Part shown: piece after piece, positions 54,097-63,113 of the stretch | Position numbering within the stretch: position 1 is the stretch's first letter | Layout of the letters: each line of letters starts with the position of its first letter | Source: Candidatus Methylacidiphilaceae bacterium | GTDB taxonomy: Bacteria; Verrucomicrobiota; Verrucomicrobiia; Methylacidiphilales; Methylacidiphilaceae | NCBI GenBank assembly: GCA_050179015.1 | Contig: JBFXFN010000004.1 | Location: forward strand, 1,800 to 65,799 | Length of the DNA: 64,000 bases | Direction of reading: 5' to 3' | Made by a program: the position numbers and the translations under genes | The notes under the pieces: generated by a model | The model's input: only the letters and a program-made list of their open reading frames with translations | Told to the model about the DNA's origin: nothing | Database searches by the model: none

Positions 54097-54793
54097 TGTA
54101 GCCTTGGATCTTTCCGAGGTGGAGACCGCGCTCTTTCTGGCGCGTCGACTGCGCGAGCATGTCAATTGGTTCAAGGTGGGAAGTCAACTCTTCTTGCGCG
54201 GCGGACCAAAAGTCGTGCAGGAGCTTCGTTCTCTAGGCGCCCAAGTCTTTCTGGATCTGAAGTTTCACGACATCCCTGCCACGGTCGAGCGGGCCGTCCG
54301 AGCTTGCGTGGAGATGGATGTGGGCTATCTGACCGTGCATGCCCTTGGGGGACGAAGAATGCTGACCGCTGCCGCGGAGGCGGCTGCGGGCAGTAAGACC
54401 AGGATCCTCGCGGTGACCGTGCTGACAAGCTTGGAAGAGGAGGATCTCTCGGATATCGGTCTTGCCGGAAACCCTGCCGAATGTGTCTCTTCCCTTGCGG
54501 CGCTCGCCGGCGAGTGCGGCATTCACGGCATCGTCTGCTCCGCCCGCGACCTTTCCTCGCTGCGGAAAGCAGGCATCCGGCCGGAAGTGGTCGTGACTCC
54601 GGGGATCCGGCTTACGCCTCGGAAGGGGGATGACCAGCGGCGCACCGTCTCCCCTCAGGAGGCGTTCGCCCTCGGAGCGACTCACATCGTGGTCGGCCGT
54701 CCGGTGCTCGAAGCGGCGGATCCGGTCAAGTTGGTGCGAAACTTGCTTCGGAAGAACAATGACCCTGCTGAGGCTGGAGATTTCAGCAATTAG
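54065..54793 (+). CDS. pyrF: orotidine 5'-phosphate decarboxylase
   Basis: LIVALDL, FKVGSQLF and FLDLKFHDIPATV (the DxKxxD catalytic block) are present. I chose the GTG start at 54065. ATG 54011 is the alternative and the start remains uncertain. Confidence 0.85.
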   Translation: MSSLPLADGLIVALDLSEVETALFLARRLREHVNWFKVGSQLFLRGGPKVVQELRSLGAQVFLDLKFHDIPATVERAVRACVEMDVGYLTVHALGGRRMLTAAAEAAAGSKTRILAVTVLTSLEEEDLSDIGLAGNPAECVSSLAALAGECGIHGIVCSARDLSSLRKAGIRPEVVVTPGIRLTPRKGDDQRRTVSPQEAFALGATHIVVGRPVLEAADPVKLVRNLLRKNNDPAEAGDFSN

Positions 54794-55005
54794 GCATCCG
54801 AGGATCGCCTCTAGGGACGGAGAAATGGCCGGCGGACCCGTTTGTCGTCGGATCGGCCTGGGGAGATGCGGCAGGGAGAGAATGCCAGCCACAAGGAGCA
54901 GGGAGCTCTCCAAGCTCATCTTGCCATCCGCAGGAGAAATCCCGGAAGAGCGCCGGCTGAGAGGCCGATTTGCGGAGTAAAGCACATGCGCCTATTGTTG
55001 AAAGC

Positions 55006-56694
55006 ATGGCGAGAAAAGAAAAAGGATTCGGAGGGGACGCTCCTATGGCATTCGAAAACCTAGAATCGGCTTCCGCCTTGCAGGTCGTCGACCTGATCGG
55101 ACAATCCCTCTCCTTCGACGCGGTCTCGAGGGAGGCCTTCTTCTATCTTCGGCGCAGAGTCGCCGAGCTGGAGGAGACGAACGAACAGGCTCGCCAGACC
55201 CTGGAAAAGCTCAATGAGGCGGTGGAAAAGCTCTCAGCCCCGGCGAATCGGGTCGGCACCCTTCTCGGCCTGCCGAAGAAGGAGATCGCCCTAGTGGTGC
55301 AGGGAGGTACCGAGTTCTATTGCAAGATCGACCCGCGGCTTGGTCATGAGACGCTCTTGATCGGAACAAGGGTGTTGCTTAACGAGGCGTTTGCCGTCGT
55401 CGGCGATCTCGGCTTCGACTTTTCCGGCCCGGTGGTCAAGGTTCTCGACGTCTTGCCGGACAATCGGCTTCGCGTGGGCCATGAAGGAGTGGGAGGAAGC
55501 TTCGTGGTGATGCGCTCGACCCCGCTCGCCAAAGAGCGGATCAAGACGGGTCTCGAAATCCGGGTCGATGGTTCCTCCCGGGTTGCACTCGAGGTCGTGG
55601 CGGTCTCGAAGACCAAGCACCGTCTGCTCGATCAGGTTCCGGAACTTCCGTGGGAGAGGGTCGGGGGGCAGAAAGAAGCGGTGGGTGCTATCCGGGATGC
55701 GGTAGAACTGCCTTTCCTCTATGCGGACCTCTTCGCCAAGTATCACCATCACGTTCCGAAGGGATTTCTGCTTCATGGGCCGCCGGGGTGCGGGAAGACG
55801 CTCTTGGGAAAAGCAACCGCCTATAATCTGACTCGCAAGCTTCGAGAAGAGACGGGAGAGGAGCGGAAGGAGTTTTTCCTCCATGTAAAGGGCCCGGAGA
55901 TTCTTAACATGTGGGTCGGGGAATCGGAACGGCAGGTGCGGGACCTTTTCGAGCAGGCCCGGGAGCTTGCTCGGGAAGGGTACCTCCCCTTCATCTTCAT
56001 CGACGAGGCGGAATCGATTTTGGGCACCCGGCGGGCCGGGCGGTTCAACAGCATCCTCAACACGCTCGTTCCCATGTTCTGCGCCGAGATGGACGGTATC
56101 GAGTCGATGAGGGAGGTGGTGACCATTCTCGCCTCCAATCGGGCGGACCTGATCGATCCGGCTATTCTTCGGCCGGGCCGAATCGACCGGAAGATCAAGG
56201 TCAATCGGCCGGATCGTGCGGGCTCGGCCGAAATCTACCGGATCTACCTTGAGGAAGATCTCCCCTATGCCCCGGCTCTTCTGGCCGAGGCGGGCGAGGA
56301 TCGAGCAAAGGCGATCGACATCCTGATTAAGGGAGTGCTGGACGCCCAGTTCGCTCGGACGGAGCAGAACCGCTTCCTCGAAGTTACTTTCCGGAGCGGG
56401 AGAAAGGAATATCTCTATCGGGGCGACCTCATCAGCGGCGCGATCATTGCCTCGATTGTCGAGAGGGCCAAGGAGCTGGCGGTCAAGCGGGCGATCTCCG
56501 ATCCCTCGAATCATGGCTTGCGGTTGGAGGATCTTTTGACAGCGCTCGAGATCGAGTATCTTGAGAATGACATCTTCCCACCGTCCGATATCACGGAGGA
56601 CTGGTTGAAGCTCGTGGACTACGATCCACAGAATGTGGTTCGGCTGGCCCCCGTGCTCCGGAGGGAGGAAGCGACGGTGCGTCAGGTCGTCTGA
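55006..56694 (+). CDS. mpa: proteasome-associated AAA+ ATPase (Mpa/ARC family)
   Basis: The product has an N-terminal coiled coil (RRRVAELEETNEQARQTLEKLNEAVEKL), OB-like interdomain, Walker A GPPGCGKT, Walker B FIFIDEAES and an arginine-finger region ASNRADLIDPAILRPGRIDRKI. Met13 of ORF 54970..56694 is the chosen start and is uncertain. The C-terminus is ...TVRQVV. Confidence 0.9.
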   Translation: MARKEKGFGGDAPMAFENLESASALQVVDLIGQSLSFDAVSREAFFYLRRRVAELEETNEQARQTLEKLNEAVEKLSAPANRVGTLLGLPKKEIALVVQGGTEFYCKIDPRLGHETLLIGTRVLLNEAFAVVGDLGFDFSGPVVKVLDVLPDNRLRVGHEGVGGSFVVMRSTPLAKERIKTGLEIRVDGSSRVALEVVAVSKTKHRLLDQVPELPWERVGGQKEAVGAIRDAVELPFLYADLFAKYHHHVPKGFLLHGPPGCGKTLLGKATAYNLTRKLREETGEERKEFFLHVKGPEILNMWVGESERQVRDLFEQARELAREGYLPFIFIDEAESILGTRRAGRFNSILNTLVPMFCAEMDGIESMREVVTILASNRADLIDPAILRPGRIDRKIKVNRPDRAGSAEIYRIYLEEDLPYAPALLAEAGEDRAKAIDILIKGVLDAQFARTEQNRFLEVTFRSGRKEYLYRGDLISGAIIASIVERAKELAVKRAISDPSNHGLRLEDLLTALEIEYLENDIFPPSDITEDWLKLVDYDPQNVVRLAPVLRREEATVRQVV

Positions 56695-56733
56695 GCGATT
56701 GGGAAAAAAGAAACCGGAGGAGAGCACGGCACC

Positions 56734-58284
56734 ATGGACAAGCAGAGACCGATTCCGGCGTGGCCGATCTATTTTGGATTGGAAACCGAATTCGGGATTG
56801 CGGTTCGGGAGAACGCGGAGATCGATGTGGTCGAGGAGTCGATCCATCTGGTGCGGGCCGCCGCTCAGCTCGGCAGCCCAAATCTCTGGGACTATACCCG
56901 CGAAGATCCCCACCGCGATGCGCGCGGCTTCCGGGCGAAGGAGCTGCGGCAGGACGGGGATGAGGCGAACTTCTTTTCCCAAGATCGCCAGAGACCCTAT
57001 AGTTTCGAGGAGATCAAGAGCGACTTCGTCCTGCGGAACGGCGCGCGTTTTTATAACGATCACACCCATCCGGAATATTCGACTCCGGAATGCTCCACTC
57101 TGCTGGAGCTGGTGGCGCAGGACAAGGCGGGCGAAAGGATCCTGGAGGAGTGCGCTCGGGCGGCGAGTCGGAAGCGCAACCACACGATCTGCCTTTACAA
57201 GAACAACACCGACTTCGCCGGACACAGCTACGGCTGCCACGAGAACTATCTGATTCCGCGAATGATTCCCTGGGACCGGATCGTCGAGGGGATGATGGCA
57301 TTCCTGGTCACGCGGCAGATCTTCGGCGGTGCGGGGAAGCTGGGCTGGGAGAAGGAGGACCAGAGCATGGTCGGAGGTTTTCAGATCTCCCAGCGAGCCG
57401 ATTTCTTTACGGAGCTTGTGGGCATCGACACCATGAACCGGCGCCCTCTCATCAATACCCGGGACGAGCCCCACGCCAACCCCAAGCTCTACCGTCGCTT
57501 TCATGTCATCGTGGGCGACTCCAACCTCTCGGAGTATGCCACCTGGTTGAAGGTAGGCACGACGGCCTTGGTGTTGGAGGCGCTCCAGTACGACCGGGTG
57601 CCGCGCCGCTTCTTCCTGGCGGATCCGCTCTATGCCCATAGGAGCATCTCTCGGGACTGGACGAATCGCTGGGAAGTCGATCTCGCCCACGCGGGTTCGA
57701 CGACCGCCGCCCAGCTCCAGAACGACTACGCCGACTGGGTCGGCCGCTACGTGGACCTTGAGCATCCCGAAAAGCGGGCGGTTTGGAAGAGCTGGAAGGA
57801 GACCGTGGAGCTTCTGCAGACGGATGCAAATGCGTTGCGCGATCGGCTTGACTGGGTCGCAAAGCGGTCCATCCTGGAGACCTTTCGCGAGGAGCAGAAG
57901 CTTCCGTGGGATGATCCGTGGCTCCAAAGTCTCGACCTGGAATACCACCTGATGGACCGGGAGCGGGGTCTCTATTACGCTTTGGAATCGGCCGGCCAGA
58001 TCTGCCGGATCTCCCGGGAAGAGGACATCTATCGGGCGATCCAGCAGCCCCCCAATGCCTCCCGAGCCTATATCCGGGGCAAGTGCATCCAGAAGTTTGC
58101 CCGGGACTTGATCAACGTTCAGTGGGACTACATCGCCTTCTGCTGGAAAGGGCAGACCTATCGGGTCGAGCTCTCCTCGGCCTTTCCGGGTGTAGATTTG
58201 GAGCACTACTGTGATGTCATCGATCGGGCGCAGTTCGTTTCCGATATGATCGAGGGGTTGAAGCTGGAGCCGATTAGCGGCTAG
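56734..58284 (+). CDS. dop: Dop-like depupylase/deamidase homologue (Pup-ligase superfamily)
   Basis: GLETEFGI, an inserted loop with WDYTREDPHRDARGF (Dop-loop-like), NGARFYNDHTHPEYSTPEC, YGCHENYL, INTRDEPHA and RFHVIVGDSNLSE are present. The gene sits between the ATPase and the modifier, as in mycobacteria. Confidence 0.85.
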   Translation: MDKQRPIPAWPIYFGLETEFGIAVRENAEIDVVEESIHLVRAAAQLGSPNLWDYTREDPHRDARGFRAKELRQDGDEANFFSQDRQRPYSFEEIKSDFVLRNGARFYNDHTHPEYSTPECSTLLELVAQDKAGERILEECARAASRKRNHTICLYKNNTDFAGHSYGCHENYLIPRMIPWDRIVEGMMAFLVTRQIFGGAGKLGWEKEDQSMVGGFQISQRADFFTELVGIDTMNRRPLINTRDEPHANPKLYRRFHVIVGDSNLSEYATWLKVGTTALVLEALQYDRVPRRFFLADPLYAHRSISRDWTNRWEVDLAHAGSTTAAQLQNDYADWVGRYVDLEHPEKRAVWKSWKETVELLQTDANALRDRLDWVAKRSILETFREEQKLPWDDPWLQSLDLEYHLMDRERGLYYALESAGQICRISREEDIYRAIQQPPNASRAYIRGKCIQKFARDLINVQWDYIAFCWKGQTYRVELSSAFPGVDLEHYCDVIDRAQFVSDMIEGLKLEPISG

Positions 58285-58299
58285 AATTTAATTAAACCC

Positions 58300-58306
58300 A
58301 GGAGGG
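58300..58306 (+). promoter_or_regulatory. strong Shine-Dalgarno sequence for the small modifier ORF
   Basis: AGGAGGG lies 2 nt before ATG 58309 and 8 nt before the in-frame ATG 58315. The spacing favours 58315 as the start. Confidence 0.5.
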
Positions 58307-58308
58307 CT

Positions 58309-58491
58309 ATGTTGATGCCAGAACAAGTACGGAAGACGCAACCGGTTGGACCCGGCCCGGGGCCGGGAGGAGATGGGCCAGGCCCGAGGGCGCCTAGAGT
58401 GGATCGCCCGAACACCGAAGAAATCCTTAAGCGGATGCGCAAGGTCGATCCGGATCAGGCGAAGCGCTATCGCCAGCGGACCGGGGAGTAG
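58309..58491 (+). CDS. small Pup-like / UBact-like protein modifier ending in -RTGE
   Basis: This 60-aa ORF (58 aa from ATG 58315) lies exactly at the pup position between dop and prcB. It has a Gly/Pro-rich disordered N-terminus and a C-terminal helix-like EEILKRMRKVDPDQAKRYRQRTGE ending in Gly-Glu. A strong SD sequence lies upstream. Confidence 0.75.
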   Translation: MLMPEQVRKTQPVGPGPGPGGDGPGPRAPRVDRPNTEEILKRMRKVDPDQAKRYRQRTGE

Positions 58492-58495
58492 CTAG

Positions 58496-59293
58496 GTGGA
58501 GACCATAAGCGTCTCGTCCGGGGCGCAGACGGGCGATTTTTTCGCAGTGCTCCGATCGAGGAATCTTCTATTCCCGGAAGGAAAGCAGGCGATGGCCGGG
58601 GCGGGTTCGCTCGCCGCTTCGGAATCGACGACGGTCCTCAGCTTCCACTATAGGGATGGGGTGATCGTGGCGGGAGATCGGCGAGCCACGACGGGGCATA
58701 CGGTCATTCACGATCGAGCCGAGAAGGTTATCGAGATCGACCGGTTCACGGTAATGGCGATCGCAGGCGCTCCCGGGACCGCGTACGAGATCGCTCGAGT
58801 TCTCCAGCACTCCTTCGAGTACTACCGGCGGAGCCAGCTTCAACCCTTGTCGCTGGACGCCAAGGTGCGAATGGTCGGAAAGCTTCTCAAGGAGAACTTG
58901 GCCTTGACGCTTCAAGGAGTGGGGGTCGTGGTTCCCCTTCTCGGCCTGGTCGACCCTCTGGGAAAGGGGAGTCCAAAGATCTTTTTTTATGACGCCCTGG
59001 GCGCGCAATTCGAAGCCGTCGATTTCGCTGTTTCGGGCTCCGGAGCGCCCGCCGCTCGCAGCGTCCTTCAGTATCTCAACCGATGGAGCGGATCACCCCC
59101 GGCGCAACGCACGGAAGACGAGGCGATCGCGCTGGCTTTGCAACTTTTGGACGTAGCGGCGGAATCCGACACCGCCACGGGGGGCATCGATCGGAGGACG
59201 CGGATCTATCCCCAGGTGAAGGTCATTCGAAAAGCCGGAGTTCGGTCGATTGCCGACGAGCAACTGAGCCGCCTGCTCCCGACGGCGGCATAG
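58496..59293 (+). CDS. prcB: 20S proteasome beta subunit
   Basis: The gene has a GTG start. An N-terminal propeptide is followed by TTVLSFHYRDGVIVAGDRRAT...EKVIEI (Thr1/Asp17/Lys33 pattern) and SGSG, which is Ntn-hydrolase proteasome family. Confidence 0.9.
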   Translation: METISVSSGAQTGDFFAVLRSRNLLFPEGKQAMAGAGSLAASESTTVLSFHYRDGVIVAGDRRATTGHTVIHDRAEKVIEIDRFTVMAIAGAPGTAYEIARVLQHSFEYYRRSQLQPLSLDAKVRMVGKLLKENLALTLQGVGVVVPLLGLVDPLGKGSPKIFFYDALGAQFEAVDFAVSGSGAPAARSVLQYLNRWSGSPPAQRTEDEAIALALQLLDVAAESDTATGGIDRRTRIYPQVKVIRKAGVRSIADEQLSRLLPTAA

Positions 59294-59564
59294 GGTCTTT
59301 CACAAGGCTTTTCTTAAGAGATGCTGGATTCGTTCCAGCGGAAGAAGGCGAGGAACGTGCGCTGCCGCCGCTGGCAGCAACGGGGGTCACGAATGCCGGA
59401 AGGGGCATGTCTCGTCAGCCGGGAGGCGACGGATACTCATTTGCATTGAACTATGCCACGGTGCTGGTAGGCTTGCGACTTCCGTTTCCCTTCCGTCAAA
59501 GACCGTTCGGGCTTCGCCGAGATTTGGGGGGAGGGGAACCAGAGCTGCGAGAAAGAGGGCAAGC

Positions 59565-60341
59565 GTGATCGAGGAACCTTATCGGTGGTTGGAAGCGGTC
59601 CAGAATCGGCGCGAGTACATCGAGGATCAGCTTCGAGGGGCCGCACCCGTTGTCGCCGTTAGCGGAGAGCCGGGCATCCTCCTGCTCGCCGGCAAGGCGT
59701 CCACTCCGAAGATTTGCGAGATCTACGACCATTTGGCCCTGGGAGCGGTGGGCCATCCCGCCGACTTGGAAAAGATCCGCCAAACCGCGATCGAGGCGGC
59801 TCATGTCGAAGGATTTTCGCGGTCCCGGGCCGACGTGAGCGCACGGAGGATCGTTAGCTATGGGTTGGCCGGCGCCTTGAAAAGCGCCTTCGAGCAGATC
59901 TTTGCCGCTCCCCTGCTCTTTCGTGGAGTTCTCGTGGAGCTAGGGGGATCCCCTGCCGGGGACCAGGGATGGATTCTCGAATATGACGGGGGTTACGCCG
60001 GGGTGGAACTCGAGCAGTTGCGGCGCGGGGTTCTAATCGGCGCGCGACAAGACCTCTTCTCGCTCTGGCAAAAAGAGAGCCGGGGCTCGCCCTTCACTTC
60101 GGGCAAAAGCTGGAAGGAGCTGGCGCAGCACGCGCTGCGCGTGCTCGGCTGGGCGGCTCAGGAGGACGCGGAAAAGCGCGTCCCATGGACGCAATTCACG
60201 CCGCGCGAGCAATGGACCGAAGCCGAGTTGAGCGGCCGATTCGAAGTGGGCGCACTCTCCCGAGAAGCAGCTTCCGGCGGCGGACCGGCTTTTTTTGTGC
60301 CGGAAGCCCGGCAGCTTGGATGGACGGCAGAAAAGGAGTAG
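59565..60341 (+). CDS. prcA: 20S proteasome alpha subunit
   Basis: The gene has a GTG start. By eye the product aligns with bacterial PrcA (N-terminal helix EAVQNRREYIEDQLRGAAPVVAVSGEPGILLLA...KICEIYDHLALGAVG). It has no N-terminal Thr nucleophile. Confidence 0.8.
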   Translation: MIEEPYRWLEAVQNRREYIEDQLRGAAPVVAVSGEPGILLLAGKASTPKICEIYDHLALGAVGHPADLEKIRQTAIEAAHVEGFSRSRADVSARRIVSYGLAGALKSAFEQIFAAPLLFRGVLVELGGSPAGDQGWILEYDGGYAGVELEQLRRGVLIGARQDLFSLWQKESRGSPFTSGKSWKELAQHALRVLGWAAQEDAEKRVPWTQFTPREQWTEAELSGRFEVGALSREAASGGGPAFFVPEARQLGWTAEKE

Positions 60342-60344
60342 GAG

Positions 60345-61754
60345 ATGCGCAGGATTGCAGGCCTCGAAACCGAATATGGCTGTCTCTCCCAGCGAGCCAT
60401 GGATAGTCCGCCGGTACCCGAGCGGGTTCGAGACTATCTCTTCTTTCGAGAGCGGATCGGTCTCATCGATGTCCACGACCGGGATTATGACGAACCTGCG
60501 GGGAACGGAGGGTTTCTTTTCAACGGCGGGCGGCTCTATCTCGATATGGGACATATCGAGTATTGCACCGCTGAATGCCTCTTTCTGGAAGATCTGCTCG
60601 CTTCCGATCGAGCGGGCGAGAAGCTGCTGCAGCAGGCCCTGACCAACCTGGGTATCGCCGCGGAAGCGTCGTTCATCAAGAACAATATCGATCACTACAC
60701 GGGCGCAACCTTCGGCTGCCACGAGAATTACCTCCTCCACCGAGAGGCCCCGCTTTCGCAAGGCAACGTCGATGCCCTGCTCGCCTTTTTGGCCGTGCGA
60801 GGGCTGATGGTCGGAGCCGGCCGGGTAGGAACGGTGATGGTGCCGCGCGGCGTGGATCGGGGAGCAAGAACGCGCGCCATGCCTTTTCAAGTAATGCAGC
60901 GCGCCGACTACATTCAGACCGAGATTTACGAATGGGTCCAATTCAATCGGGCTCTGATCAACGCACGGGACGAGCCTTTGGGGGATCCTTGCCGCTTTCG
61001 CCGCTTGCATCTTCTCCTGGGAGACTCGAACATGCTTCCGTTTTCCCAAGCTCTCAAGGTAGGCAGCACTTCTCTCGTTCTCGATCTCCTGGAAGCGGAT
61101 CGGATGCCCCATATCGCCCTTGCCGACCCGGTGCGAACCATGCACCAGATTTCCCACTGTCCGGATGGCCCCTGGTTGATCGAATTGGCCGACGGAAGAA
61201 GATGGACCGCGGTGGAGCTCCTGGAGCACTTTTTGGCGGCGGCGAACCGGCTGGATCTGGAAGAGGATCAAGACAGCCTCTGGACCTCTATTGCTTGGGA
61301 AGAGGTTTTGCGCGGGCTGCGCGAGGAAAGCGATGCTCTCTTGGGGAAGGTCGATTGGATCACCAAGCGGCATCTGCTCGATCTCTTTCGAAGCCGCGAG
61401 GGGGTTCGTTGGGACGACCCCTGGATGGAGAGCCTCGATCTCGAGTACCACAATCTGAACGAAAAGCGGGGCTTGGCGGGGCTGATGCCCCACCCTTCGA
61501 TCGAGGAGCTCGGCCTTTCTGGCTTTGGAAACCAGGACCCGCAGCGAGAGGCTCCCCGGAACACCAGGGCCTACGCGCGCAGCCAGCTCATGCAGCGGGT
61601 AGTTGCGGGCAAGATCTCATACGTAATTGATTGGGACTACGTTCAGGTCGGCAACAGTGGATACTACTCCTTGGAGGATCCTTTCGTCAGTACAGTGCCT
61701 CCGAAGGCGGAGCTGCCGGGCCTGTGCGAGGATTTGGAGTTCCGGTCAAAATGA
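60345..61754 (+). CDS. pafA: PafA-like Pup/UBact--protein ligase
   Basis: MRRIAGLETEYG, NGGRLYLDMGHIEYCTAEC, FGCHENYL, INARDEPL and RRLHLLLGDSNM are present. The product is shorter than the Dop paralogue and lacks the Dop-type loop. GGAG lies upstream of the ATG. Confidence 0.85.
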   Translation: MRRIAGLETEYGCLSQRAMDSPPVPERVRDYLFFRERIGLIDVHDRDYDEPAGNGGFLFNGGRLYLDMGHIEYCTAECLFLEDLLASDRAGEKLLQQALTNLGIAAEASFIKNNIDHYTGATFGCHENYLLHREAPLSQGNVDALLAFLAVRGLMVGAGRVGTVMVPRGVDRGARTRAMPFQVMQRADYIQTEIYEWVQFNRALINARDEPLGDPCRFRRLHLLLGDSNMLPFSQALKVGSTSLVLDLLEADRMPHIALADPVRTMHQISHCPDGPWLIELADGRRWTAVELLEHFLAAANRLDLEEDQDSLWTSIAWEEVLRGLREESDALLGKVDWITKRHLLDLFRSREGVRWDDPWMESLDLEYHNLNEKRGLAGLMPHPSIEELGLSGFGNQDPQREAPRNTRAYARSQLMQRVVAGKISYVIDWDYVQVGNSGYYSLEDPFVSTVPPKAELPGLCEDLEFRSK

Positions 61755-61781
61755 TCCCCGCGTCCGTCGCTCCTCATTCCC

Positions 61782-63113
61782 ATGCTTGAAGCCCTCCAGA
61801 AGAAGCTCGAGTCGGTTTTTCGCGGCCTTCGGGGCTATGGAAAGCTTTCGGAGGCTAATATCGCCGATGCGCTCCGGGAGATTCGCCTCGCGCTCCTTGC
61901 CGCCGATGTCCACTATTCAGTAGCAAAGCGGCTCTGCGAAGAGATCCAGAAGAGGGCCCTCGGGAAAGAGGCGCTGACAGGCATTCGGCCGGGCGATCAA
62001 TTCGTCAAGCTCTTCCACGAGGAGCTTGTCCATCTCCTCGAAGAAGGCCAGAGGGAGATCCGGCCGGAACGGCCGATTCGACTTCTCCTTTGCGGACTCA
62101 ACGGATCGGGGAAGACCACAACCGCAGCAAAGCTCGCCCTCCGTTTCCGAAAGCAGCGTCAAAAAGTGGCACTTGTAGCGGGCGACCTGACGCGGCCCGC
62201 CGCTCGCGAGCAGCTCCAGCGGCTCGGAGAACAGATCCAGGTCCCGGTCTACTCCTGGCCGGATGGGACCGCGATGGAAACGGTCGTTCGCGAAGGACGG
62301 GCTCGAGGGGAGCAGGAGAGAATCGACGTGCTGATCTTCGACGCGGCAGGCCGGCTGGATGTCGATGCGGGCCTGCTCGAAGAGCTCGCGGGTGTAGCCA
62401 AGCTCTGGGAGCCTGGGGAATCACTGCTGGTGGTCGATGCGGCGACGGGACAGGTGGCGGTAAAGGTGGCGGAAGCCTTCGCGGCCAAGGTGCCGCTGAC
62501 CGGCTTGGTTCTATCGAGGGCCGACGGCGATGCCCGCGGGGGTGCCGCCCTCTCGATCCAGCAGGCGACAGGGCTTCCCATCAAGTTTTTGGGGGTAGGG
62601 GAGAAGCCGGATGCCTTGCAGGAGTTCGTTCCCGAACGATTCGTCGGGAGACTCTTGGGCATGGGGGACATCGTGGCGCTCGTCGATCGCGCACAGTCGG
62701 AAATCGACGCCCAGTCGATGGAGGAGATGACCAAGCGGCTGAAGAGCAATGAATTCGGGCTGCAGGATTTTCTCGGGCAGCTTCGGATGATGAAGCGGCT
62801 AGGTCCGCTCGAAAACCTCCTTGCGCTCCTCCCCAGCTTTCCCGGCAAGGAAGCGGTCAAGGTGGACGAGAAGAAGATCAAGCAGATCGAGGCCATCATC
62901 CTCTCCATGACGCCTGAAGAACGGCGCAGGCCGACCCTTCTTAACGGACGTCGCCGCCTACGGATCGCGCAGGGGAGTGGAACGCGGGTCAACGATGTCA
63001 ACGATCTCTTGCGCAAGTTCGATGCGATGCGGAAGATGATGCGGCAGGTTTCCAAGGGCGGATCGGGGAAGGGCTGGCCGAAGCTGGGTTTCCCTCGTTC
63101 CCTGCATGGTTGA
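61782..63113 (+). CDS. ffh: signal recognition particle protein Ffh
   Basis: The product has an N domain, a G domain ([36 protein letters not shown]) and a Met-rich M domain. Confidence 0.94.

What the first reader, a model, noticed from the sequence alone, without database searches (positions are those of the whole stretch)
58309..58491. Modifier is basic, Gly/Pro-rich and ends in RTGE, unlike canonical acidic Pup ending in GGQ/GGE
Seen: the ORF translates to MLMPEQVRKTQPVGPGPGPGGDGPGPRAPRVDRPNTEEILKRMRKVDPDQAKRYRQRTGE. By my count it has 13 Lys/Arg against 8 Asp/Glu, so it is net basic. Residues 12-29 are almost pure Gly/Pro. The last about 25 residues look helical and end in Arg-Thr-Gly-Glu.

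Established: mycobacterial Pup is strongly acidic and ends in Gly-Gly-Gln. Its C-terminal half folds onto the Mpa coiled coil and onto PafA.

Inference: the charge reversal implies co-evolved, different recognition surfaces on the ATPase coiled coil and on the ligase. The R-[T/S]-G-[E/Q] terminus is what I recall as the UBact signature. The strong AGGAGGG SD sequence is best spaced for the second ATG (58315).
Basis: partly seen in the sequence, partly recalled or inferred. Interest (0 to 1): 0.8.

Follow-up and report, generated by a model that had tools for sequence, protein, structure and literature searches.

The report
Known UBact protein-tag gene
This small gene encodes UBact, an already described bacterial protein tag that takes the place of Pup in a proteasome operon of a Methylacidimicrobium-like bacterium; its basic charge, Gly/Pro-rich front half and RTGE end are the normal hallmarks of that family, so the finding is correct but ordinary.

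Summary
ORF 58309-58491 (+) translates as written, with 13 K/R against 8 D/E and pI 10.5.

It is an ordinary member of the published UBact family:
- It scores 81.7 bits on Pfam PF20513 (cutoff 27.8) and 86.2 bits on NCBIfam NF033388 (cutoff 35).
- It is 90-95% identical to Methylacidimicrobium UBact proteins.
- All 120 top homologues are net basic and end in RTGQ (90) or RTGE (30).
- Relatives were found in 527 species genomes.

The gene sits in the usual operon: ATPase, Dop-like, UBact, PrcB, PrcA, PafA-like. Homologues and Shine-Dalgarno spacing favour the second ATG (58315), giving 58 aa. AlphaFold2 predicts a disordered N-terminal half and two short C-terminal helices.

There is no detectable sequence relation to Pup (Pfam Pup gives no hit; hhalign probability 1.5%).

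- All 49 UBact-type PafA ligases carry a more negative net charge (-11 to -39) than three mycobacterial PafAs (-2 to -6).
- The ATPase coiled coil shifts only slightly (-1.1 against +1).

I found no conjugation experiment in the held literature.

Verdict: already known, low interest.

The parts
58315..58491 (+). UBact coding sequence: 58 aa from the second ATG, with stop TAG at 58489-58491. The longest ORF starts at ATG 58309 (60 aa).
   Evidence: Pfam UBact 81.7-81.8 bits and NCBIfam ubiq_like_UBact 86.2 bits. 90-95% identity to Methylacidimicrobium UBact. Homologues start MP[DE]Q.
58300..58306 (+). Shine-Dalgarno sequence AGGAGGG. The AGGAGG core ends 9 nt before ATG 58315 and 3 nt before ATG 58309.
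   Evidence: Sequence read. AAACCCAGGAGGG is identical in 5 of 6 Methylacidimicrobium-clade loci; L070 has a variant, AAACATAGGAGGC.
58411..58488 (+). Conserved C-terminal module TEEILKRMRKVDPDQAKRYRQRTGE. It holds two predicted short helices separated by D-P and ends in the terminal Glu that would be ligated.
   Evidence: 24 invariant columns among 40 homologues, 17 of them in this segment. AlphaFold2 helices 34-44 and 46-56, pLDDT 81-91. All 80 genome loci end RYRQR[TS]G[QE].
58342..58410 (+). Gly/Pro-rich, predicted disordered N-terminal half (PVGPGPGPGGDGPGPRAPRVDRPN).
   Evidence: Composition. pLDDT 48-57 with no secondary structure. Variable in sequence but Gly/Pro-rich across the closer homologues. 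The most divergent members keep the prolines and lose most glycines.
55006..56694 (+). Mpa/ARC-like proteasomal AAA ATPase. The ORF opens at TTG 54970; the ATG is at 55006. It has a short N-terminal coiled coil (about residues 59-91 of the 574-aa ORF) and ends in RQVV, not GQYL.
   Evidence: Pfam AAA, Prot_ATP_ID_OB_N and Prot_ATP_ID_OB_C. NCBIfam pup_AAA 450.8 bits, below its 504.75 cutoff. E 1e-101 to Mtb Mpa structures. C-terminus.
56734..58284 (+). Dop-like enzyme (516 aa) carrying a Dop-loop-like insertion with a Trp (…NLWDY…). Predicted to remove UBact from substrates.
   Evidence: Pfam Pup_ligase 525 bits. NCBIfam Dop 440.7 against PafA 364.5 bits. Sequence. Dop-loop Trp described in PMC8599861.
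58496..59293 (+). Proteasome beta subunit PrcB. A propeptide is followed by TTVLSF…, with Thr1, Asp17 and Lys33 present. The GTG start lies 4 nt after the UBact stop.
   Evidence: NCBIfam 20S_bact_beta 160 bits, below its 191.9 cutoff. Pfam Proteasome 88.9 bits. Residues read.
59565..60341 (+). Divergent proteasome alpha subunit PrcA.
   Evidence: NCBIfam 20S_bact_alpha E 1.8e-14, below cutoff. Pfam Proteasome E 0.0019, below the gathering score. Syntenic in related loci.
60345..61754 (+). PafA-like ligase (469 aa, no Dop loop). Predicted UBact-protein ligase.
   Evidence: Pfam Pup_ligase 367.5 bits. Colinear alignment to C. glutamicum PafA 4B0T/4BJR. D67 aligns with catalytic D64, and R202, R133, R208 and R219 are conserved.

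Best explanation
The ORF is the UBact gene of a Methylacidimicrobium-like verrucomicrobium.

UBact is a small, intrinsically disordered, basic protein. In the Pup-proteasome-type operons of several Gram-negative phyla it occupies the position that Pup holds in actinobacteria.

Most likely mechanism, inferred by homology of the enzymes and not shown for UBact:
1. The protein is made from ATG 58315.
2. Because it already ends in Glu, it needs no deamidation.
3. The PafA-like ligase (60345-61754) phosphorylates the gamma-carboxylate of the C-terminal Glu with ATP and joins it to lysine side chains of target proteins.
4. The two short C-terminal helices dock in the ligase and Dop groove.
5. The Mpa-like ATPase (55006-56694) recognises the tag through its N-terminal coiled coil and threads the disordered Gly/Pro-rich N-terminus into its pore.
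6. The PrcA/PrcB 20S proteasome degrades the substrate.
7. The Dop-like enzyme (56734-58284) removes the tag.

The basic charge, the Gly/Pro-rich half and the RTG[EQ] end are family-wide features, not peculiarities of this copy.
For: Identity (shown):
- Pfam UBact 81.7 bits against a 27.8 cutoff; NCBIfam UBact equivalog 86.2 against 35.
- 92% identity to M. cyclopophantes and 90% to Methylacidimicrobium sp. AP8 proteins, the latter annotated UBact; 95% to M. tartarophylax by tblastn.
- The operon DNA is 83-86% identical to Methylacidimicrobium genomes.

Family hallmarks (shown):
- 120 of 120 top homologues end RTGQ or RTGE and are net +2 to +12.
- A profile search of 1.84 billion representatives found 182 hits. 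Nearly all of the full-length ones listed keep [KR]Y[RK]QR[TS]G[EQ] at the very C-terminus.
- All 80 genome loci end RYRQR[TS]G[QE].

Context (shown):
- The window carries ATPase, Dop-like, UBact, PrcB, PrcA and PafA-like genes in that order.
- The same order recurs in related loci.

Enzyme competence (shown by sequence):
- PafA-like D67 aligns with catalytic D64 of C. glutamicum PafA. R202 aligns with R201, which contacts the Pup C-terminus. R133, R208 and R219 are conserved in 48-49 of 49 sequences (PMC8599861, PMC10465538).
- PrcB has Thr1, Asp17 and Lys33.

Structure: disordered N-terminal half plus two helices, matching the two-helix mode that Pup adopts on PafA and Dop (PMC8599861).

Start codon.
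Against: - I found no experiment showing UBact conjugation, removal or proteasomal targeting in the held literature. Every mechanistic step is by analogy with Pup.
- UBact has no detectable sequence similarity to Pup. Pfam Pup gives no hit at E<=10 and hhalign gives probability 1.5%.
- The helix-compatible stretch is only about 23 residues and is broken by a Pro that is invariant among the 40 close homologues. The region upstream is Pro/Gly-rich. UBact therefore cannot copy the 30-residue helix that Pup forms on the Mpa coiled coil (PMC8755798).
- The ATPase lacks the C-terminal GQYL motif that Mpa needs to open the 20S gate (PMC8142254).
- The ATPase, Dop, PafA, PrcB and PrcA homologues all score below NCBIfam's equivalog cutoffs for the actinobacterial proteins.
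Confidence: 0.85

Rival explanations
1. UBact is simply a very divergent Pup orthologue. It would work exactly as Pup does, forming a long helix on the ATPase coiled coil, so no distinct recognition logic exists.
For: - Identical gene position and the same enzyme set.
- A G-[EQ] C-terminus and a two-helix prediction.
- Iyer et al. 2008 recovered the Methylacidiphilum protein as a Pup orthologue with profile searches (PMC2588565).
- The weak hhalign match is colinear and anchored at the C-terminus: xT[DE][DE]LL … Y.Q[KR].G[QE].
Against: - hhalign probability is only 1.5%, and Pfam Pup finds nothing at E<=10.
- A UBact profile pulled no Pup-like protein among its best 150 of 182 hits.
- Charge is reversed: pI 10.5 against 4.05.
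- Pro/Gly-rich sequence occupies the region equivalent to the Mpa-binding helix.
- The ATPase coiled coil is shorter, about 33 against about 45 residues, and GQYL is absent.
- The ligases are uniformly more acidic.
Confidence: 0.1
2. UBact is conjugated to proteins but mainly as a regulatory or non-degradative mark. Alternatively it reaches the 20S by a route that does not use ATPase C-terminal docking.
For: - All 43 UBact-linked ATPases examined end in small or hydrophobic residues (SAII, SGVV, RQVV and similar) with no penultimate Tyr. Mpa requires GQYL (PMC8142254).
- In at least 15 verrucomicrobial loci the UBact-PrcB-PrcA-PafA module has no Dop-like gene within 2.5 kb upstream, despite 2.6-7 kb of sequence on that side.
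- Iyer et al. proposed regulatory pupylation in lineages without linked proteasome genes.
Against: - UBact is immediately followed by prcB, with a 4-nt gap here.
- It is followed by prcB in all 80 loci, with prcA and pafA next wherever the contig reaches.
- PrcB keeps its catalytic residues.
- The ATPase keeps both OB domains and the AAA module.
Confidence: 0.04
3. The ORF is a chance open reading frame in a GC-rich intergenic region and is not translated.
For: It is short (58-60 aa), low in complexity in its first half, and lies in a 60% GC window where spurious ORFs abound.
Against: - HMM E-values are 1e-23 to 1e-24.
- 24 columns are invariant across 40 homologues from several phyla.
- Relatives occur in 527 species genomes.
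- The SD sequence is conserved, and position and stop codon are conserved in all 80 loci.
Confidence: 0.01

Closest known systems
UBact (Pfam PF20513, NCBIfam NF033388; Lehmann, Udasin, Livneh & Ciechanover 2017, BBRC 483:946, cited in PMC12751074)
   Same: Everything tested agrees:
- HMM scores are far above the cutoffs.
- Length is 56-60 aa and the start is MP[DE]Q.
- The N-terminal half is Gly/Pro-rich.
- It carries the LKRMRKVDPDQAKRYRQRTG[EQ] module, invariant among close homologues, and is net basic.
- It sits between the Dop-like gene and prcB.
   Different: Nothing of substance.
- This copy belongs to the roughly 25% of the family that ends in Glu rather than Gln.
- Like other Methylacidimicrobium copies it has two extra in-frame codons (ATG-TTG) before the conserved Met, and a somewhat more Pro-rich linker.
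Pup (Pfam PF05639; actinobacterial prokaryotic ubiquitin-like protein)
   Same: - Same operon position and the same partner enzymes: Mpa/ARC-like ATPase, Dop, PafA and a 20S proteasome.
- Small and intrinsically disordered, with a Gly-rich N-terminal part.
- Two short C-terminal helices.
- A terminal Gly-Glu/Gln, suited to gamma-carboxylate ligation (PMC2588565, PMC8599861).
   Different: - No significant sequence or profile similarity.
- Basic rather than acidic: pI 10.5 against 4.05.
- Ends RTGE, not GGQ/GGE.
- Pro-rich sequence sits where Pup forms its 30-residue Mpa-binding helix.
- The partner ATPase lacks GQYL and has a shorter coiled coil.
- The partner PafA carries about 15 more net negative charges. 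It also lacks the site-1 R38 and site-3 K444 positive residues.
Ubiquitin, SAMP and other beta-grasp modifiers
   Same: Functional analogy only: a small protein attached by its C-terminus to lysines and linked to a proteasome.
   Different: - No beta-grasp fold is predicted; the model is disordered plus two helices.
- Ligation would go through a Glu side-chain carboxylate, using a glutamine-synthetase-fold ligase, rather than through an E1/E2/E3 thioester cascade (PMC2588565).

Membership tests
UBact (PF20513 / NF033388) | Scores above the curated family HMM cutoffs | tested here: met
   Pfam 81.7 bits against 27.8. NCBIfam equivalog 86.2 bits against 35, covering profile positions 2-54 of 54.
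UBact (PF20513 / NF033388) | C-terminus [KR]-Y-[RK]-Q-R-[TS]-G-[EQ] directly followed by the stop codon | tested here: met
   The window protein ends KRYRQRTGE followed by TAG. The pattern holds in 120 of 120 top homologues, in nearly all full-length distant representatives, and in 80 of 80 genome loci.
UBact (PF20513 / NF033388) | Small (about 55-70 aa) net-basic protein with a disordered Gly/Pro-rich N-terminal half and a conserved helical C-terminal half | tested here: met
   58-60 aa, +5 formal charge, pI 10.5. AlphaFold2 gives no structure for residues 1-33 and helices at 34-44 and 46-56. Homologues are net +2 to +12.
UBact (PF20513 / NF033388) | Encoded in a Pup-proteasome-type operon, next to Dop/PafA homologues, the proteasomal ATPase and 20S subunits | tested here: met
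   The window order is ATPase, Dop-like, UBact, PrcB, PrcA, PafA-like. The same order recurs in related loci.
UBact (PF20513 / NF033388) | Covalent conjugation to substrate lysines and targeting to the proteasome | not testable with these tools
   This needs biochemistry or proteomics. No experimental report turned up in the held literature.
Pup (PF05639) | Matches the Pup family profile | tested here: not met
   No Pfam Pup hit even at E<=10, while Mtb Pup scores 79.7 bits in the same call. hhalign of a UBact alignment against a Pup alignment gives probability 1.5%, E 0.034.
Pup (PF05639) | Acidic protein ending in Gly-Gly-Gln/Glu | tested here: not met
   The window protein is basic (13 K/R against 8 D/E) and ends Thr-Gly-Glu. 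The 28 aligned Pups all end GG followed by Q (27) or E (1) and are acidic.
Pup (PF05639) | Central region able to form a roughly 30-residue helix on the Mpa coiled coil (Pup residues 21-51) | tested here: not met
   The equivalent region is Pro/Gly-rich; prolines sit at 58-aa positions 10, 13, 15, 17, 22, 24, 27 and 32. The helix-compatible stretch is about 23 residues, interrupted by P46, which is invariant among the 40 close homologues. The Pup-Mpa binding mode is taken from PMC8755798. This is a sequence-based inference, not a binding test.
Pup (PF05639) | Operon context with dop, prcB, prcA, pafA and mpa/arc | tested here: met
   Actinobacterial loci L081-L083 are available for comparison.

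The most novel reading that the evidence does not exclude
UBact systems may be more than Pup systems with a relabelled tag. Four family-wide differences, seen here by sequence only, point to different recognition rules at three interfaces:
- The tag is basic and Pro-interrupted, and cannot form the long helix that Pup forms on Mpa.
- The ATPase coiled coil is shorter and slightly acidic.
- The ATPase C-termini lack GQYL and any penultimate Tyr.
- The PafA ligases carry about 15 more net negative charges than mycobacterial PafAs. They also lack the positive substrate-guiding residues R38 (site 1) and K444 (site 3), while Dop is unchanged in charge.

Taken together, these suggest that tag-ATPase binding, ATPase-20S docking and ligase-substrate selection all work differently from the actinobacterial paradigm. 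I do not know whether these points have been published; the original UBact paper is not in the held library.
Probability: 0.3. Interest if true: 0.45.

Novelty: already known. Interest (0 to 1): 0.15.

Why it matters
For this window it matters little. The gene is a textbook member of a family that has curated Pfam and NCBIfam models, a 2017 naming paper, and a 2008 report of the orthologue in the neighbouring genus Methylacidiphilum. NCBI's pipeline already annotates it in related genomes.

The wider family remains of some interest because, as far as the held literature shows, nobody has demonstrated UBact conjugation or degradation experimentally. The comparative differences noted here give concrete hypotheses for whoever reconstitutes the system:
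- acidic ligases;
- ATPases without GQYL;
- a short, Pro-broken helical region in the tag.

Methylacidimicrobium and Methylacidiphilum are cultivable, so they could serve as models.

Tried and rejected
- **PDB by sequence.** The only matches were to the N-terminal low-complexity region of Prp8 (E 0.01-0.04). I judged these compositional, not homology. There is no solved UBact structure.
- **Pfam Pup at E<=10 and hhalign of UBact against Pup alignments.** No significant relation. The Pup alignment is narrow (Mycobacteriales only, mean column identity 85%), which limits sensitivity.
- **UBact profile against 1.84 billion representatives.** I hoped for bridging sequences to Pup. None appeared among the 150 listed.
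- **Groove residues of PafA and Dop that contact Pup.** The contact lists are in figures that are not held. I could therefore not localise charge swaps to the groove. I fell back on whole-enzyme net charge and on the published rim sites.
- **Charge-swap columns.** There were only 4-5 basic-to-acidic columns against 2 acidic-to-basic per enzyme, too few to interpret. One pair (window R27/D30 against E35/R38 in C. glutamicum PafA numbering) looks like a swapped i/i+3 pair rather than a net change.
- **AlphaFold-Multimer-style complexes.** Not attempted.
- **Rfam scan of 54500-62000.** No hits.
- **Promoter and terminator scan.** Counts were at chance level.
- **Is the prcB-prcA spacer a decayed OsmC/Ohr gene?.** tblastn gave no significant match to the window spacer.

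Full report
**1. The observation**

- It has 13 Lys/Arg against 8 Asp/Glu. The computed pI is 10.5 and the charge at pH 7 is about +4.5.
- Residues 12-29 contain 7 Pro and 7 Gly out of 18.
- Mtb Pup, for comparison, has 7 K/R against 19 D/E and pI 4.05. It was checked by its 79.7-bit Pfam Pup match and by 98%-identical database proteins.
- AGGAGGG lies at 58300-58306. Its AGGAGG core ends 3 nt before the first ATG and 9 nt before the second ATG at 58315.

**2. What it is**

The protein matches the curated UBact models far above their thresholds:
- Pfam PF20513: 81.7 bits (cutoff 27.8, E 3e-23).
- NCBIfam NF033388 'ubiquitin-like protein UBact', equivalog: 86.2 bits (cutoff 35, E 1e-24).

The closest proteins come from Methylacidimicrobium: M. 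cyclopophantes at 92%, sp. AP8 at 90% (annotated UBact) and M. tartarophylax at 95% by tblastn. The whole operon is 83-86% identical in DNA to Methylacidimicrobium species genomes. The window therefore comes from a member or close relative of that verrucomicrobial genus.

The surrounding genes are those of a Pup-proteasome-type operon:

| Coordinates | Gene |
|---|---|
| 54970/55006-56694 | Mpa/ARC-like AAA ATPase |
| 56734-58284 | Dop-like enzyme |
| 58315-58491 | UBact |
| 58496-59293 | PrcB |
| 59565-60341 | PrcA |
| 60345-61754 | PafA-like enzyme |
| 61782-63113 | ffh |

**3. Every flagged feature is a family hallmark**

- Among the 120 best homologues, 90 end RTGQ and 30 end RTGE. All are net basic, +2 to +12.
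- In a 40-sequence alignment 24 columns are invariant, 17 of them in the C-terminal L-K-R-M-R-x-V-D-P-D-Q-A-x-R-Y-R-Q-R-T-G block. The N-terminal half is variable but Gly/Pro-rich.
- A profile search of 1.84 billion cluster representatives found only 182 hits at E<=0.001. Even the most divergent full-length ones keep [KR]Y[RK]QR[TS]G[EQ] at the extreme C-terminus.
- A scan of one genome per species found relatives in 527 genomes. All 80 loci fetched end RYRQR[TS]G[QE], 62 in Q and 18 in E.
- prcB follows UBact in all 80 loci, with prcA and pafA next wherever the contig reaches. ATPase and dop lie directly upstream in most loci.
- In at least 15 verrucomicrobial loci with 2.6-7 kb of upstream sequence there is no dop within 2.5 kb, so the operon is sometimes split.

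That test is passed.

**4. Start codon**

Most homologues begin MP[DE]Q. In several Verrucomicrobia a stop codon lies one to three codons upstream of that Met.

Within Methylacidimicrobium the SD sequence and both ATGs are conserved. The codon between the two ATGs varies (ATG, TTG or CTG). Only N-terminal proteomics can settle it.

**5. Structure**

AlphaFold2 with the 40-sequence alignment predicts no structure for residues 1-33 (pLDDT 48-57). It predicts two helices, 34-44 and 46-56 in 58-aa numbering, with pLDDT 81-91, separated at the D-P dipeptide (invariant in the 40-sequence alignment).

This mirrors the two short orthogonal helices that Pup forms in the binding groove of PafA and Dop (PMC8599861). 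No UBact structure is in the PDB.

**6. Relation to Pup**

There is no significant sequence relation. The Pfam Pup model does not hit UBact at E<=10. hhalign between a diverse UBact alignment and a Pup alignment gives probability 1.5% (E 0.034). The 26 aligned columns are colinear and C-terminally anchored.

Iyer, Burroughs and Aravind (2008) nevertheless counted the Methylacidiphilum protein as a Pup orthologue with a G[EQ] end (PMC2588565). Lehmann et al. (2017; reference found in PMC12751074) named the family UBact.

I therefore file the ORF as a member of UBact. It works like Pup, but it is not a member of the Pup sequence family.

**7. How it most likely works**

These points are shown by sequence:
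- The PafA-like enzyme aligns end to end with C. glutamicum PafA. It lacks the Dop loop and has the PafA-type motif LYLDxGHxEYxTAEC.
- It keeps the catalytic Asp: D67 aligns with D64, the residue mutated in 4BJR.
- It keeps R202, which aligns with R201, the residue that contacts the Pup C-terminus.
- It keeps R133, R208 and R219, which align with R137, R207 and R218 (PMC8599861, PMC10465538).
- The 516-aa paralogue scores best as Dop and carries a loop containing Trp.
- PrcB has Thr1, Asp17 and Lys33 after its propeptide.

The following sequence of events is inferred by analogy:
1. UBact-Glu is ligated through its gamma-carboxylate to lysines by the PafA-like enzyme, with no need for prior deamidation.
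2. The Dop-like enzyme removes it.
3. The ATPase binds it through its coiled coil.
4. The disordered N-terminus threads it into the proteasome.

I found no experiment on UBact in the held literature.

**8.

I tested what could be tested.

(a) ATPase coiled coil.
- In 39 UBact-linked ATPases the segment aligned to window residues 45-92 has a net charge of -1.1 +/- 1.3 (range -4 to +1).
- The conserved core 'YLRRRVxELEE..QAR.A.EKL..AV.KL..PA' is about 33 residues long.
- Mtb Mpa 46-96 has net charge +1 and is about 45 residues long (sequence verified against PDB 3M9B).
- The shift is in the expected direction but small.

(b) Ligase.
- Over shared alignment columns, all 49 UBact-type PafAs have net charge -11 to -39 (mean -18.8; window -21).
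- Three Mycobacteriales PafAs from loci L081-L083 have -2, -3 and -6.
- Of the positive rim sites that guide substrates in actinobacterial PafA (PMC10465538), site 2 is conserved.
- Site-1 R38 is D or N in 47 of 49 sequences, and site-3 K444 is mostly G, D, E or Q.

(c) Dop. There is no charge shift: -18.7 against -17 to -20.

(d) The tag itself.
- The Pro/Gly-rich sequence upstream of the helices, and the Pro at position 46 (invariant among close homologues), mean UBact cannot form the 30-residue helix that Pup forms on Mpa (PMC8755798).
- Some difference in ATPase recognition is therefore likely.

Overall the inference is plausible and partly supported for the ligase. It rests on only three Pup-type comparators from one order and on bulk charge, not on mapped contacts.

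**9. Novelty and score**

The gene is an unremarkable member of a known, curated family in a genus where it is already annotated. Nothing distinguishes this copy apart from belonging to the Glu-ending quarter of the family.
- Novelty: already known.
- Interest: low (0.15).
- Most novel reading not excluded: UBact systems differ systematically from Pup systems at the tag-ATPase, ATPase-20S and ligase-substrate interfaces (section 8, plus the missing GQYL). I give this about 0.3 probability of being both real and undescribed, and moderate interest if true.

Noticed in passing
window 56680-56694 (C-terminus of the ATPase); loci L001-L080: The Mpa-like ATPase ends …TVRQVV. All 43 UBact-linked ATPases examined end in small or hydrophobic residues (SAII x11, SGVV x5, RQVV, RQIV and others) with no penultimate Tyr. 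Mpa and an actinobacterial ARC (L083) end in GQYL, the motif required to open the 20S gate (PMC8142254).
   Followed up: partly
window 59294-59564 (between prcB and prcA): There is a 271-nt non-coding spacer here. In most Verrucomicrobia prcB and prcA instead overlap by 4 or 8 nt. Methylacidimicrobium genomes all have a 234-339-nt spacer whose 3' roughly 120 nt are conserved, including CATTTGCATTGAA…GCTGGTAGGCTT. It has no Rfam match and no family hit for the overlapping ORF 59083-59568. It could be an internal promoter or an RNA element.
   Followed up: partly
loci L017, L023-L025, L027, L028, L032, L033, L036-L038, L043 (between prcB and prcA): In a sister group of Methylacidiphilales MAGs, a roughly 140-aa OsmC/Ohr-like gene is inserted between prcB and prcA (Pfam PF02566, E 2.8e-8 for the L023 copy). 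This places a peroxide-stress protein inside the proteasome operon. The window spacer shows no significant remnant of it.
   Followed up: partly
window 60345-61754 and PafA homologues in L001-L080 against L081-L083: UBact-type PafA ligases are uniformly much more acidic (net -11 to -39) than three mycobacterial-order PafAs (-2 to -6). The paralogous Dop enzymes do not differ. The published positive substrate-guiding residues R38 and K444 of C. glutamicum PafA are replaced by D/N and by G/D/E/Q.
   Followed up: partly
window 59565-60341 (PrcA): The alpha subunit is very divergent. Pfam Proteasome gives only 18.3 bits (below the gathering score of 22.4), and NCBIfam 20S_bact_alpha gives 53.8 bits against a 139 cutoff. 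It is recognisable mainly through synteny.
   Followed up: no
loci L007, L009, L035, L039, L040, L047-L049, L055, L056, L059, L063 and others: In at least 15 verrucomicrobial genomes the UBact-PrcB-PrcA-PafA module has no Dop-like gene within 2.5 kb upstream, despite 2.6-7 kb of available sequence on that side. The operon is therefore split in some lineages.
   Followed up: no
window 58258-58287: A sigma-70-like site (TTGAAG, 18 nt, TAGAAT) lies at the 3' end of the dop-like gene, about 25 nt upstream of the UBact start. Its second hexamer overlaps the dop stop codon. The number of such sites in the region is at chance level (2 found, 1.1 expected). The second hexamer is not conserved in related genomes.
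   Followed up: partly
loci L007, L009, L018, L076, L078: Contigs with typical verrucomicrobial UBact operons sit in MAG records titled Klebsiella or Akkermansia muciniphila. These are probably taxonomic mislabels or binning errors in the public records.
   Followed up: no
window 58309-58488 against PDB: The only PDB sequence matches of UBact are to the N-terminal Pro/Gly-rich region of the spliceosomal protein Prp8 (E 0.01-0.04), including a '…QAKRY' stretch. I judged this compositional coincidence.
   Followed up: no
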